A stretch of 64,000 bases of DNA from Chrysomallon squamiferum (lineage: Eukaryota > Animalia > Mollusca): the NCBI GenBank assembly GCA_012295275.1, contig CM022676.1, positions 6,386,001 through 6,450,000 of the forward strand. The letters are read 5' to 3'. Under the pieces are notes generated by a model. It was given only the letters and a program-made list of their open reading frames with translations, did not search any database and was not told where the DNA came from. Shown here piece by piece: positions 13,997 through 56,796 of the stretch; position 1 is the stretch's first letter, and each line of letters starts with the position of its first letter. The translations under genes were made by a program, and so were the position numbers.

Positions 13997-14031
13997 CTTG
14001 TCTTCAACACAGAATTATAAAACAATGCCAT
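13997..14031 (-). CDS. Short alternative first coding exon (MALFYNSVLKT+AG), phase 2
   Basis: 11 codons + 2 nt; donor AAG|GTAATT; about 200 bp downstream of a conspicuous CpG-rich, AP-1-containing patch. Confidence 0.45.
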
Positions 14032-14224
14032 ACTGAATCACCAAGAATACAAAAATATTACAAAAACCACTCAATCACAGGAACAACTGACTAATGCATC
14101 ATTATCGAAGGACACCATTTACACAAAAAGACTTTAAAAAAAAAAAAAAAAAAAACAACATAAAATCAAACTCAACAAACCTTCAGGCTGCAACCAAAAG
14201 AACACAATTCTTGCATAAAACATA

Positions 14225-14410
14225 AATCCCGGCCCATCAACTCTTCACAATCATTTTTCCGCACAATACAAAATGCACGGCATGCGTATCGCGGCATTTA
14301 TGCGGCATTGCAACCGCTGCTGTCAGGTCGTGCACTATGCCACGCGGTGGAATTAATGACTCATGGGGAAAGGGGAAAGCTGACTCAGAAACCCGATCGA
14401 CTTGTTACCA
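14225..14410 (-). promoter_or_regulatory. CpG-rich promoter-like patch with two AP-1 sites
   Basis: Many CpGs in a CpG-poor background; TGACTCA at 14357-14363 and 14381-14387; upstream of the 13997-14031 exon. Confidence 0.5.
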
Positions 14411-15255
14411 ATACCGATTGTTAAGAGCTGCCATCATGGTTCCAGTGGTCTCACGAATCTTGTTATTCAGTTCGTGTTTTCGTTATTTGTAGCAGATTAG
14501 GCAGCAACACATGGAATTTAATTTGTGACAGCGTTACAGCAGATATTATTAAGTTAAAAACATTTTTTTTTTTTTTTTTTTTTCTTTCTTTTTTTGAATG
14601 TTTGAAGGATTTGGAAAGGTTTTCTTAAGGCTGTTTGTTTGAGTAAATGTTTGTGTTTCTGATGAATGTTTTTGGAAAAATATAATTAGCTGGATTTCTA
14701 TAAAATCTGTTTATTTACATAATAAATCCATTAGTTCTAATGTTGCTTTTGATTTCTTTTTGCGTAAACTTCCCTTGTTACTACTTCTTTTATTTGAAAT
14801 TTTTTTTTTAAACTCTAACCCTGTTAAAAAAACAAAACATGTTCCATTCTGATATTTGGTTATCAATGCTATATGGATTATTTCAATGATGATTCAAATT
14901 AACTTTGTTTGGGTTTTTTTGGTTGCCTACATTGATTTTTTTTTTTTTTTGGGGTCTGGTTTTCAGTACCTTACTGTTGAAAGTTAATTGATGGATTTTT
15001 GGTTTTGTCTTTACAAAATTCTGTTATAATTTATACTTTCAATATTACACATGCAAAAAATCAGACATGCATTTAAATACATGCAAAGAATCCAGCAAAA
15101 GAGATTTTAAGAAAAAGAAAAAAAGAAACAGAAAAAATAGCGTCACAAATATTTTTCAAGAATAATTTTACAACAAAGGCACACACATAGTCTGCAACAC
15201 AAAAATAAAAAATCTATTTGGTACCACCTAAACACCAGAAACAAACTATTTATAC

Positions 15256-15415
15256 CTCTCTCTCTCTCTCTCTCTTGTTCTCTCTCTCTTTCTCTCTCTC
15301 TCTCTCTCTCTCTCTCTCTCTCTCTCTCTCTCTCTCTCTCTCTCTCTCTCTCTCTCTCTCTCTCTCTCTCTCTCTCTCTCTCACACACACACACACACAC
15401 ACACACACACACACA
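15256..15415. repeat. Compound (CT)n(CA)n microsatellite
   Basis: Direct observation. Confidence 0.98.
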
Positions 15416-52565: not shown

Positions 52566-55500
52566 TAAATAAATATAAGTGATAACAAGATTAGTGTTTC
52601 ACTGTCACACAAAACAAGTATAGTAAACTGCTATTGTTTCTGTAAAAATAAACAAAGTTGACTGTGTTATCATTGTTCTGTTGATATCAAAAACTTACAG
52701 GGTTTTTCTTTTTGTTTCTGTTTTAGAAAACGATTGTAGGTGGTAAAATGGGATTGGCCAGGATTGTCCTTTTTTATTTTTTTTTTTTTTTTTTTAATAC
52801 TTTCCATTAAAAAATATTTCCTTGTTTATAAATAATATGGGTCTTTACTAGAATATGGACTAACAGATATAAAAAAAAATAATTTAAAAATTTTTAAAAA
52901 TATTTTTTTATTTATTTTTTTATTTGTTTTTTTTTTTAGTAATTAGTAATATTAAATATAAATAAATAAATAAATAAATAAATACCAAAGATGAAAAAAA
53001 ACACCAACTAATCAGTTATATACATTAAATCACAGAGTCCATACAAACACAGATACATCCAGGAAGAGAATAAAAAAAAATAAAAAGCTTGTTAAAAGAT
53101 TCTGAAGAACAACTTCTTTTTTTTTTGTTAAGTTTAGTTTCTTCAAAAGGAATATTTTAAATTTCTGATCTGAACACATGAGGATGTTGTAGGAAGTAAA
53201 AAAAAAAAAAAAGTAAATTCAAAATTCACAGCTCATTAATCCAAAAGAATTATGATGAAGTAATTAAACTTGAACACAATCCACCTGAAGTAAAATGACT
53301 ACACTGATATTTCAAATAATAATAATAATAATAATAATAATAATAATAATAATAATATTAAAATAATAATAATAATAATAATCCAAGAACTTAAAGCAAC
53401 AAACCAAACTTAGGATTTCTTCATATGTTTAAAAACATAAATTGGTGTATTTATAATCATCAATCCAAACTTGTGAACCTTCATCATTTCAATAACTGAA
53501 TTACATATCCATTCTTCAACATTTATATAAAAGATATGTGAATATTTAAGCCAGTTTGATGTATTATAAAGTTACAAAAACCTCAATCACAAATCCATAC
53601 TACTAATGTCTGCCTCATCTTCTTTAATCCGAATAGATCCAAATGCATGATGCTTCTTCATTTCATAAGTTTTTTCATTTTAAAATACCTTTGAATAGTT
53701 ATTAACAAAAACAGTACATGTGTCTTAAACAAGCACAAATGTTTATATAATCATTGCAGATATTTTCTGATGCTTTGTAAACTGTTGGTCCTCACGTCTT
53801 AATAATCATTCAAAACATGTTTCTTTTCTAACCTCTGTTTAGGATGTTAAAACACAGTTGATAATTATATACATTTTGAAAGGTGTTGTCTGTTTACATG
53901 TATGTGAATATCAGTTCACTATTTTAGGTCTCAGTTACATGTTTGTGACCTTGGGGAAAATAAAAATAAAAAAATGCTTTCAGAATAGAAACTGATGATG
54001 TTATTAACCTTCCATGGATCAGGTTAAAAAAAAAAAAAAAGAAGAGTAAATATCACAATAACAACTAAAAAAAAAAGAAGAAAAAAGAAACACTATCTTT
54101 GTGGTTAGTAACTGTAGAAGAAGATAATAATAGCAACAAATGAATAAGAAAAACAAATGGATATTTCTTTTTAGAGTAATTGATAATAAAAAGATTTAAT
54201 AAAAATTTCCAAAATTCCTCGTTGGCTTTAGCTCTTCATAAAGTTACTTAATTTCACAGCTAGATGATTGTTAATATAATTTTTAAATAAAACATAAACT
54301 TTTGGCAAAGAAATCTTCCTTCTTGGCTACAACTCTTCACAAAATCAGTTAATATGGCAATTATCCACACAAAATATTTCACTGTTTTCACCACCTGTTG
54401 TATAAGATATTCTCAACAATCAAATATATATATGTGTGTGTATGAGTGTGTTAATTTGTTTACTGGTGATGGTTGACAAGAAGATAAGTTAATAAAAATT
54501 CTTCATAAAAACAAGCATCAAGTCTTTACAATGTCCATATGACATTTTTTTTTCAGTGTTCCAGTCAATTAGAGAGACATTTGTTGTCAATAATCAAACT
54601 ATTTTTATGGAAAAAATAAATTTCAGTTTCTATTGATTTCATGCCTTATAAGTTATTAAATAATATAGCTCTGCCAAATCCATATCAAGTTCACAAGAAA
54701 TCTTTCAGTGTTTCAGTGAACTGTTGTACATAAAAACAAAATAATTTTAGGTTATAAGATGAGCTAGTATCAACAAAATCCATTAATGCCCACACAAAAT
54801 TGTTCAGTATTCCAATCCTTTTAAATAACATTGGATATTAACAGGCAAGAAGTAGAAAAAAACACACAAAAACATCCTTGTTTAGTTCCAGATACAATCT
54901 TACCCATGAAGTAAAACTTTCCAACACTGCAGTCAACTGTCAATAATCAAATATAAAATATAATCCCAAGCTCAGTTATAAGCAAGAAGAAGCATTATGT
55001 CCACAAAGAAGAAATACACACAAAGATTTGTCACTGCTGTTCTAATTTCTCAGCAAACATTAAATGAAAATATAACACAGTGTTGAAGATGAGTTAATAT
55101 AATAGATCATTCACATCCGTATTACAATGTCCACACAAACTTGTTGTAAGTAATGTTGATGTAAAGTATACAATTTTATGTCAGCTTTTGTTATTTACAA
55201 TAAAACTTCATGTAAGTGAAATAACTGACAGAAGTATATTAATTTTATTTATTGTCAGCTGAAGAAAAGTTTTATGTCAAATTTTACACTTCCTTGATTT
55301 AGGGCACAATAAAGTCTAATATATTTGTGAAATGACATGTAAAATGTATTTCCTTGTTAGCGTTGATAATAAAATTGAATGTGATTGTGATACAAGATAT
55401 GAATTTCAGTCACTACTGTTGTTATCAGTTGTAGTTGAATTTGATGTTCATGATAAAATTATATACTTCCTCGATTTAGTTCTCGATAACCACTAATGAA

Positions 55501-55809
55501 TAATTACAAACATAAAATGAAATGTTCACCAGTTGAAACGGATGTAAGTTGTCATATTATACTCTTCTTTGTTTAATTTCCAATAGATTTCCACCTTTTT
55601 CACAGAATTGGTTTGATTTCCAAAGAAAACGTTTGACAGCTTTTTGTCAGTGGTAGCAGAACATGATAAGTCAACATTAATGATTAATCCAGCAAGAATA
55701 TGATATCAAACAGTCTGGTAAAAACACACAAATCTTTTCCACTCCTTGCAATAAACTTTGATTAGAACAGTCAAATCATAAAAAAAAGACATTTTTCTCT
55801 GTTATGTCT

Positions 55810-56390
55810 TCAGTAACAATAAACAGGTAAACTGTGTGACAGCTAGAATCCACATTTAACTATTCACAATAAGTTCACCACAAGAATAAACAAATATTTT
55901 CAATCCTATTTCATTTGTAGTAAAACTTTAAGTCAACAATCAAACTATGAACATTATTTCCTTTTTAAGCTTACAATAACAACAGATAATAAAACAGGTA
56001 TATAACTTGACTGCCAGAATCCACAGTTAACTATCCACAATAAGTTCACCATAAGAAAGAAGAAAGATTTTCAATCCTATTTTCATTTGTAAGAAAATTT
56101 GAGGTCAACAGTCAAATTGTAAATATATTTCATTGTCACAGTTATAATAACAAAAGATAATAAAACAGTTCTAGAAAATGATTTGCAAGAATCCACAGTT
56201 AACTATTCACAATAAGTCCACCGTTAGAACAAACAAACATTTTCAATCCTGTTTTTTATGTAGTAGAATCAGCGGTTGACAATCAACTTACAAACATATT
56301 TCCTTTTGTAAAACAACAACAACAGCAGCAGCAGTATCACATGACAGCCAACAAGCCTGCAGTCAACTATTATTTCAACAATAAAAAGTC
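55810..56390. repeat. Degenerate tandem repeat, about 172-bp unit, 3-4 copies
   Basis: Recurring AGAATCCACAGTTAACTATTCACAATAAGT(T/C)CACC...TTTTCAATCCT. Confidence 0.8.
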
Positions 56391-56662
56391 AACTCAACTA
56401 TGTAACCTGACTACCAAAACACAAAAACATATTTTGCACAAACATATTATAAACGTGTCTCCTTGTTCCTCAAACAATACGGAAGGTTAATACAATAGCT
56501 ATACTATACACGTCTGCCAGCGAGTCCAAGTTTAAACTGACTAGTCACTGTGTGTGTGTGTGTAAAAAAAAAAAAACCACACTATCCCAGACAGTCACTG
56601 CAGGTTATTATCAATCAAGTGACATCAATAAACAGGTCCTCTGTATCACAGACGTGACTTAC

Positions 56663-56796
56663 CTCAACGCAGATTTACAACCCTTCTGTTGTTGTTGTTG
56701 TGTCAAAATATTTTTATCACCGTATTGTAGTCTGGCAAGGCAGTGTTTTCCTGTTTCATGTCTCGAAATATAAACAAAATATACTCGACATTCCAT
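56663..56796 (-). CDS. Alternative first coding exon (MECRVYFVYISRHETGKHCLARLQYGDKNILTQQQQQKGCKSAL+AG), phase 2
   Basis: ATG directly preceded by in-frame TAA; 44 open codons + 2 nt; consensus donor GAG|GTAAGT; locally raised GC/CpG. Confidence 0.55.

What the first reader, a model, noticed from the sequence alone, without database searches (positions are those of the whole stretch)
13997..56796. Hidden array of phase-2 alternative first coding exons: a variable-N-terminus cassette over more than 40 kb
Seen: four minus-strand ATG-initiated units of 30-51 open codons (56663-56796, 51538-51692, 32628-32719, 23946-24061) and several shorter ones (26739-26806, 13997-14031, 32525-32556, 25299-25315, 51214-51224) end at GT donors in the same phase (3n+2). 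They lie in GC-richer unique islands and all fall under the 60-aa ORF cutoff as ATG-initiated units. Inference: they are mutually exclusive, promoter-selected first exons that splice to one constant exon beyond position 1, the variable/constant logic known from clustered protocadherins, UGT1 and plectin. The 32628 exon ends in TG, so the shared exon cannot begin with A (that would make TGA). Caveat: short ATG-donor units also arise by chance in all phases here, so only the longer ones are persuasive.
Basis: partly seen in the sequence, partly recalled or inferred. Interest (0 to 1): 0.85.

Follow-up and report, generated by a model that had tools for sequence, protein, structure and literature searches.

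The report
Alternative start exons of mollusc RhoGAP
This stretch is the front end of an ARHGAP32/33-type cell-signalling gene, likely from a mollusc: one short, very old start exon is spliced in RNA to the rest of the gene, and two to four other short exons upstream are likely alternative starts, a common gene layout rather than a protocadherin-like cassette.

Summary
All nine ATG-to-GT phase-2 units exist. Minus-strand phase 2 is the only one of six strand/phase classes in excess over shuffles (P 0-0.03). The gene is an ARHGAP32/33 (fly CdGAPr) RhoGAP. Unit 23946 is 30/31 identical to the N-terminus of a bivalve homologue. One RNA contig splices its donor, in frame, to a homologous exon 2 outside the window. 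51214 is a tandem-duplication by-product. 51538 and 56663 are likely further first exons (strong donors, in frame), but have no RNA junction or homologue yet; the short units are unresolved. The units are unrelated to each other, so this is not a protocadherin/UGT1-type paralogous array. It is ordinary multi-promoter N-terminal variation, already annotated in arthropod orthologues. The new detail is a 31-residue leader kept from molluscs to annelids and, more loosely, in myriapods and chelicerates.

The parts
23946..24061 (-). Coding part of the confirmed start exon of the ARHGAP32/33 (CdGAPr) orthologue. In-frame ATGs at 24061, 24055 and 24037; the conserved start is 24037; phase-2 donor at 23946.
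   Evidence: 30/31 identical to P0003 residues 1-31; 19/33 to annelid P0038, E 5e-6; RNA contig spliced at 23946 in X3 and a contig ending there in X4; synonymous T>A at 24026 in X3 and X4 (codon read from the sequence).
24062..24098 (-). 5' leader of the same exon; runs on past 24098 towards a CA repeat; holds an in-frame stop 3 codons above the first ATG.
   Evidence: X3 and X4 contigs cover it unbroken; 1-nt deletion at 24068 in X4; 3 open codons upstream.
1..23945 (-). Intron (over 23.9 kb) skipped by the 23946 junction; exon 2 lies left of the window and begins with A.
   Evidence: Loose end of 28 nt at 23946; its start is not in the window (one chance hit with 2 mismatches); no tblastn hit for P0003 residues 32-357 better than E 0.76.
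51538..51692 (-). Likely alternative first coding exon (51 codons, CAG|GTGAGT, A at -3 and G at +4); AG|A keeps the frame.
   Evidence: No homologue. No RNA junction tested.
56663..56796 (-). Likely alternative first coding exon (44 codons, GAG|GTAAGT; in-frame TAA directly before the ATG); AG|A keeps the frame.
   Evidence: No homologue. No RNA junction tested.
32628..32719 (-). Exon-like 30-codon frame with a strong donor and AAA-ATG start, but it ends in TG, so it stops (TGA) on exon 2. Likely an upstream ORF or a leader exon, or it uses another acceptor.
32525..32556 (-). 10-codon unit (N-terminal Cys-Cys) in frame with exon 2. It directly follows an AG that would close a 71-nt intron from donor 32628, making TG|ATG an overlapping stop-start. 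Predicted only.
   Evidence: Acceptor at the 92nd percentile of 3160 minus-strand AGs; no RNA.
13997..14031 (-). Candidate short first exon (11 codons) just below the most CpG-rich island of the window; skipped by the 23946 junction; unresolved.
   Evidence: 19 CpG in 600 nt, top percentile; donor 3.2.
26739..26806 (-). Candidate (22 codons, weak donor); unresolved.
25299..25315 (-). Candidate (5 codons, CAC|GTAAGT); unresolved, within the range of chance.
51214..51224 (-). Not an independent exon: the ATG sits at the edge of a tandem copy of the 51538 donor and the first ~320 nt of its intron.
   Evidence: Alignment, mean column identity 83%.
43393..43433 (-).

Best explanation
The window holds the 5' region of an ARHGAP32/33 (CdGAPr) RhoGAP gene in which the 23946 start exon is spliced in phase 2 to a second exon left of the window, and two to four other short ATG exons (best: 51538 and 56663) are likely alternative, promoter-selected starts that would join the same exon 2. 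Shown: gene identity by homology, the 23946 junction, exon 2 starting with A, and the phase-2 excess. Inferred: each exon has its own promoter; a transcript begun upstream skips the lower start exons because they offer no preferred acceptor, so each mRNA puts one short, unrelated leader (10-50 residues) in front of the same PX-SH3-RhoGAP body. The leaders would tune tissue expression, translation and location rather than catalysis. The 23946 leader is the ancestral, strongly constrained one. Its basic cluster and RRxT would serve as a nuclear-import or kinase-regulated docking motif (motif labels recalled, untested). The 32628 frame would be an upstream ORF, not a coding leader.
For: Homology: 30/31 to P0003. 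P0003 residues 32-245 find 709 of 1072 candidates at E<=1e-10, the listed best 120 named ARHGAP32, CdGAPr or unnamed and all with RhoGAP+SH3 Pfam marks. Annelid P0038 carries the same leader plus SH3 and RhoGAP (E 1e-44) in one chain. RNA: of 4 runs laid (one study), X3 shows the spliced junction (contig depth 26), whose 28 nt read in frame with 5 of 10 junction residues identical to P0003 31-40; X4 ends exactly at the donor. Statistics. Precedent: annotated arthropod isoform sets have several unrelated leaders, e.g. three in Chamberlinius and three in Periplaneta (gene models, not experiments). RNA runs hold 28-39% of the sampled words of 51500-57500, a weak hint of transcription upstream.
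Against: Only one donor has an RNA junction, in one contig of one study; X1 reads into the intron and X2 has nothing laid. No homologue was found for 51538 or for any other unit among 161 distinct N-termini of held homologues, although mollusc full-length isoforms over 2000 aa were outside. 32628, one of the three best-looking units, does not fit exon 2, so a strong donor plus a long open frame is not proof. Thresholds were post hoc. In arthropods the extra leaders join either in front of the conserved exon or further downstream, not at the junction right after it.
Confidence: 0.62

Rival explanations
1. Two-tier layout as in myriapods and scorpions: upstream first exons (56663, 51538, 32628) splice onto the conserved exon itself through the AG just before C-ATG (acceptor at 24038). 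This would make a symmetric 93-nt phase 2-2 exon and keep 32628 open (TG|C = Cys).
For: The AG|C-ATG geometry is in the sequence and gives phase 2. In Chamberlinius and Centruroides different leaders are annotated in front of the homologous exon. It explains why 32628 has a good start context and a strong donor.
Against: X3 and X4 contigs pass 24038 unbroken with no loose end, though contigs drop rare variants. The acceptor scores only at the 68th percentile of AGs. Bivalve and annelid models start at this ATG.
Confidence: 0.13
2. Single coding start: only 23946 is a coding first exon. The other units are chance ATG-donor pairs, non-coding leader exons with upstream ORFs, or unused sites.
For: No homologues for the others; 32628 stops and 51214 is a duplicate; at loose thresholds about 9 of 16 units are expected by chance.
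Against: The excess is confined to the strand and phase that RNA independently shows to be the gene's; it remains after removing 32628 (P about 0.02); orthologues commonly have several leaders.
Confidence: 0.2
3. One reading: all listed units form one protocadherin/UGT1-like variable cassette on a single constant acceptor.
For: Shared phase and strand, acceptor outside the window.
Against: Exon 2 begins with A, so 32628 stops; 51214 is a duplicate; no similarity among units, best E 1.4; no domains.
Confidence: 0.03
4. 51538 is the first exon of a different, nested gene. By eye it resembled the recalled short-isoform N-terminus of TSC22D1/GILZ.
For: Only a recalled resemblance; no call supports it.
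Against: No TSC-box motif on the minus strand of the window; no Pfam family above its cut-off in 104 of 351 open frames scanned; no homologue.
Confidence: 0.02

Closest known systems
ARHGAP32 (RICS / PX-RICS), ARHGAP33 and Drosophila CdGAPr
   Same: Same gene family. N-terminal isoform variation is known: PX-RICS is a longer isoform of RICS with added PX and SH3 (PMC7226772, passages; PMC4799364, passages).
   Different: The RICS/PX-RICS switch adds or removes whole domains. Here the variation is in short leaders upstream of the PX region. The conserved leader was not detected in the fish and insect proteins held.
Annotated arthropod CdGAPr isoform sets (Chamberlinius GAB6027397-401, Centruroides, Tachypleus, Argiope, Periplaneta)
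   Same: Several unrelated short leaders on one constant body; the same conserved exon motif in myriapods and chelicerates.
   Different: There the leaders join in front of the conserved exon or further downstream. Here the conserved exon is itself a start exon in the RNA seen. Those sets are gene models.
Genes with several unrelated first exons (plectin, NOS1, glucocorticoid receptor; FGF13)
   Same: Short non-paralogous first exons on common downstream exons (listed in PMC1885805 and PMC2780955, passages). [quoted passage not shown]
   Different: Convergence and separate promoters are shown for those genes and only inferred here; leader-dependent targeting in plectin is recalled, not read.
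Clustered protocadherins, UGT1, GCNT2 variable/constant clusters
   Same: Variable-first, constant-last logic and one shared frame.
   Different: Their variable exons are large, similar to each other, of almost the same length, encode a domain and share a promoter motif (PMC1885805, passages). These units are 3-51 codons, unrelated and domain-free.

Membership tests
ARHGAP32/33/CdGAPr | 5' exons homologous to those of family members | tested here: met
   30/31 to P0003; exon-2 start homologous, 5 of 10 residues; P0003 32-245 retrieves ARHGAP32/CdGAPr at E down to 1e-53.
ARHGAP32/33/CdGAPr | PX-like, SH3 and RhoGAP domains in that order downstream | tested here: inconclusive
   Those exons lie outside the window and no genome is held. 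Homologues with the same leader have SH3+RhoGAP (P0038) or weak PX+SH3 (P0003: E 0.015 and 1.7e-4, under the cut-offs); PX reaches its cut-off in P0028.
ARHGAP32/33/CdGAPr | GAP activity on Rho-family GTPases | not testable with these tools
   Needs biochemistry.
Protocadherin/UGT1-type variable cluster | Variable exons are paralogous and similar in sequence and length | tested here: not met
   All-against-all of 9 peptides: best E 1.4; lengths 3-51 codons.
Protocadherin/UGT1-type variable cluster | Each variable exon is large and encodes a domain | tested here: not met
   0 Pfam families in 7 of 7 peptides scanned, 5 of them listed units.
Protocadherin/UGT1-type variable cluster | Every variable exon splices in frame to the same constant exon | tested here: not met
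   One junction shown; 32628 would give TGA on that exon; the others untested.
Protocadherin/UGT1-type variable cluster | Conserved promoter motif before each variable exon | not tested
   No motif search was run; only GC and CpG were compared.
Multi-promoter gene with unrelated first exons (plectin/NOS1 type) | Two or more first exons joined to one exon 2 | tested here: inconclusive
   One junction in RNA; statistical excess of compatible units, P about 0.02.
Multi-promoter gene with unrelated first exons (plectin/NOS1 type) | A separate transcription start for each first exon | not testable with these tools
   Runs are kept as contigs, which show no starts.

The most novel reading that the evidence does not exclude
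A mollusc ARHGAP32/33 gene uses five or more promoters over 43 kb to swap targeting leaders on one RhoGAP. One is a Cambrian-age 31-residue basic, kinase-regulated leader shared by molluscs, annelids, myriapods and chelicerates and not described in the papers searched. One is a Cys-Cys lipid-anchor leader (32556) whose translation is gated by a 30-codon upstream ORF ending in a splice-made TGATG stop-start. The rest are lineage-specific leaders (51538, 56663, 13997, 43393).
Probability: 0.15. Interest if true: 0.55.

Novelty: new member of a known kind. Interest (0 to 1): 0.3.

Why it matters
It gives the anonymous array a gene name and corrects it: gene models of this long-intron RhoGAP need a short, easily missed start exon, and probably several. 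A leader with 30 of 31 residues identical between this animal and a bivalve, next to a fast-changing exon 2, points to a binding or phosphorylation motif that can be tested directly. Four motif strings from it gave 0 papers; three more searches listed nothing on mollusc ARHGAP32 first exons. The layout itself is common and does not open a new class of diversification system.

Tried and rejected
TSC22D/bunched as the host gene: a recalled resemblance of 51538; dropped after named the gene through 23946 and one search found no TSC-box motif on the minus strand. Searches with the 51538 peptide: proteins of 91-2000 aa, none; 2 hits, both unrelated repeat proteins; atlas, none; PDB, none; metagenome contigs: 309 pattern matches, 0 confirmed. 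Conserved-exon scan of metagenome contigs: 94 matches, 0 confirmed. Exact look-up of six read-through peptides: 0 of 6 in the collection. Pfam on 104 of 351 open frames of 50 aa or more (chosen by complexity and GC): 2 weak hits under cut-off. Rfam: 0. The sigma-70 scan does not apply to an animal and is ignored. The atlas feature search with P0003 pointed to NCF4/NOXO1 (PX+SH3) at under 0.9; sequence search overrode it. Acceptor 24038 as the meeting point: no support, not excluded. Acceptor 24078 leads to an in-frame stop (sequence). The word share was not confirmed by laid contigs and is only a hint. X2 having no contig is not evidence of absence. No whole genome is held, so exon 2 and the promoters could not be located. 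Supplements of papers were not read; isoform tables there could bear on the novelty of the leader.
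Full report
Observation. The window is AT-rich animal DNA (28% GC, 139 tandem-repeat rows). All nine units are present on the minus strand as ATG-initiated open frames of 3n+2 bases ending at GT. A generic donor matrix written from recall rates 51538, 51214, 56663 and 32628 as strong and the rest as middling to weak. 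Against 300 block-wise dinucleotide shuffles per strand, minus-strand phase 2 is in excess in all five settings tried (3 vs 0.32, 4 vs 0.62, 4 vs 1.18, 16 vs 8.65, 25 vs 17.0; P 0-0.03), and none of the other five strand/phase classes goes below P 0.17 (one search agrees with 150 shuffles). The settings were chosen after seeing the data, and some low-scoring units lie in TG repeats that shuffling destroys.

Which gene. The 23946 peptide found three proteins of 3 candidates at 93-97% identity. One is Tegillarca granosa KAJ8316127.1 (P0003), whose first 31 residues match window 24037-23945 at 30 of 31 and which goes on into weak PX and SH3 matches. The other two are unnamed ORFs that read from the same motif into unrelated sequence, as a read-through of the same donor would (inference). 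P0003 residues 32-245 retrieve 709 of 1072 candidates at E<=1e-10; the 120 listed are named ARHGAP32, CdGAPr or unnamed and carry RhoGAP and SH3 marks. The annelid protein P0038 has the same leader (E 5e-6 to the window) and SH3 plus RhoGAP (E 1e-44) in one chain. Residues 32-357 of P0003 have no match in the window (best E 0.76). So the window is the 5' region of an ARHGAP32/33/CdGAPr orthologue and the rest of the gene lies to the left. The near identity to a bivalve makes a mollusc likely; other AI notes on this genome call it a snail (unchecked).

RNA. Four RNA runs of one study hold the region and were laid on 23915-24098. X3 (contig depth 26) matches up to exactly 23946 and continues with 28 bases not in the window. 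Read by hand in the exon's frame they give AG|A then nine open codons; 5 of the 10 junction residues equal P0003 31-40. X4 ends exactly at 23946, X1 reads on into the intron, X2 has nothing laid. X3 and X4 run unbroken through 24038 and past 24098, over an in-frame stop and a one-base deletion at 24068, so this is the first coding exon of those molecules. The listed substitution (24026) is synonymous. This is one spliced contig from one study, with no DNA run beside it. No other donor was tested in RNA.

What that does to the array. Exon 2 begins with A. Units ending in AG (56663, 51538, 32525, 26739, 13997) or AC (25299) stay open; 32628 ends in TG and stops. Ending in AG is the donor consensus, so compatibility alone says little. 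With only compatible units counted, 2 long strong units remain against 0.22-0.26 expected (P 0.017-0.025; 0.07-0.08 at a looser donor cut). 51214 is the edge of a tandem copy of the 51538 donor and ~320 nt of intron. The units share no sequence with each other (best E 1.4) or, apart from 23946, with 161 distinct N-termini of 206 held homologues. 32628 has a possible explanation: an AG at the 92nd percentile of acceptors lies 71 nt below it, directly before the 32556 ATG, so splicing would give TG|ATG, a stop overlapping the start of the 10-codon Cys-Cys unit that is in frame with exon 2. This was found post hoc and is untested.

How it likely works. Shown: gene identity, the 23946 junction and its phase, the excess of compatible units. 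Inferred: several promoters over 43 kb each give a short leader exon that joins exon 2, so the same PX-SH3-RhoGAP body gets different N-termini and different 5' leaders in different tissues. I put 51538 at about 0.65 and 56663 at about 0.6 of being such exons, and the short units at 0.2-0.4 each (judgement). CpG-rich islands next to 13997, 26739 and 51538 fit promoters but do not prove them. The 23946 leader is old: by-eye alignment and a profile built from those eight rows find it in 22 of 209 proteins scanned (first 220 residues). Fifteen are the training rows or their isoforms and congeners, so they are circular; seven spider proteins at E 0.008-0.04 are not. No insect or fish protein held scored, nor did the Batillaria, Paralvinella or Priapulus models, which may be incomplete or use another start. 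Its basic cluster resembles a nuclear-import signal, its RRxT a basophilic kinase site, and the arthropod RxxSxP a 14-3-3 site; these labels are recalled, and the annelid copy lacks the Ser/Thr. Mammalian PX-RICS binds 14-3-3 through a C-terminal RSKSDP motif (PMC4799364, passages) and fly CdGAPr is seen at the cortex and among proteins with nucleus-related localisation (PMC10017266, passages); neither tests this leader.

Rivals. (1) Upstream exons join the conserved exon through AG|C-ATG at 24038, as leaders join the homologous exon in Chamberlinius and Centruroides models; this would rescue 32628, but the contigs show no break there and the acceptor is weak (0.13). (2) Only 23946 is coding (0.2). 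(3) The full cassette as first written (0.03). (4) A nested gene for 51538 (0.02).

Comparison with what is known. Family membership rests on homology of two exons; the catalytic domain is outside the window. Protocadherin/UGT1 clusters are defined by large, similar, domain-coding variable exons with a shared promoter motif (PMC1885805, passages); paralogy, size and common in-frame splicing were tested and not met. The locus would work like plectin/NOS1-type genes with unrelated first exons, which the same paper lists. [quoted passage not shown] N-terminal variation in this family is already known (PX-RICS versus RICS; PMC7226772, passages) and annotated in arthropods. Zhang, Haws and Wu 2004 was seen only as a reference entry. 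Other papers were seen as search listings only; one search found 0 papers for four motif strings. No supplements were read.

Verdict. A real feature, smaller and more ordinary than proposed: one confirmed, deeply conserved start exon and a few likely alternatives of an ARHGAP32/33 gene. New member of a known kind; interest 0.3.

Noticed in passing
window 32719-32525, minus strand: A possible 71-nt intron (32627-32557) would join the 30-codon frame to the 32556 ATG as TG|ATG, an overlapping stop-start ahead of a Cys-Cys leader in frame with exon 2.
   Followed up: partly
window 43393-43433, minus strand: Extra phase-2 ATG-donor unit (13 codons, donor score 6.7) just below a CA repeat, as for the confirmed exon; the same donor also has an 18-codon phase-0 frame.
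   Followed up: partly
window 50880-51560: Tandem duplication of ~320 nt that copies the 51538 donor and its intron start, leaving a second perfect CAG|GTGAGT that could compete.
   Followed up: yes
window 14100-14500, 25000-25400, 27400-27800, 61500-61750: CpG-rich unique islands in a CpG-poor window; promoter- or enhancer-like. The 61.5-kb island has no long ATG-donor unit and could be a non-coding first exon.
   Followed up: no
window 63103-63151 and 63195-63437, plus strand: Two plus-strand ATG units with good donors (scores 8.3 and 7.0, phase 1) and an 81-codon ORF; no Pfam match. Could be the start of a divergent neighbour or chance.
   Followed up: partly
window 11531-12014, 1134-1411, 16077-16339, 21795-22063, 47121-47657, 55837-56255: Minisatellite and 146-193-nt tandem repeats in the introns.
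   Followed up: no
proteins P0036, P0031, P0168, P0175: Spiders, horseshoe crab and scorpions share a second conserved 12-residue first exon ending in Cys that skips the region holding the conserved leader; it has no match in this window.
   Followed up: partly
protein P0056: The Paralvinella model starts with a short leader of about 9 residues in place of the conserved one found in Ridgeia, which may be an alternative first exon in annelids (gene model only).
   Followed up: partly
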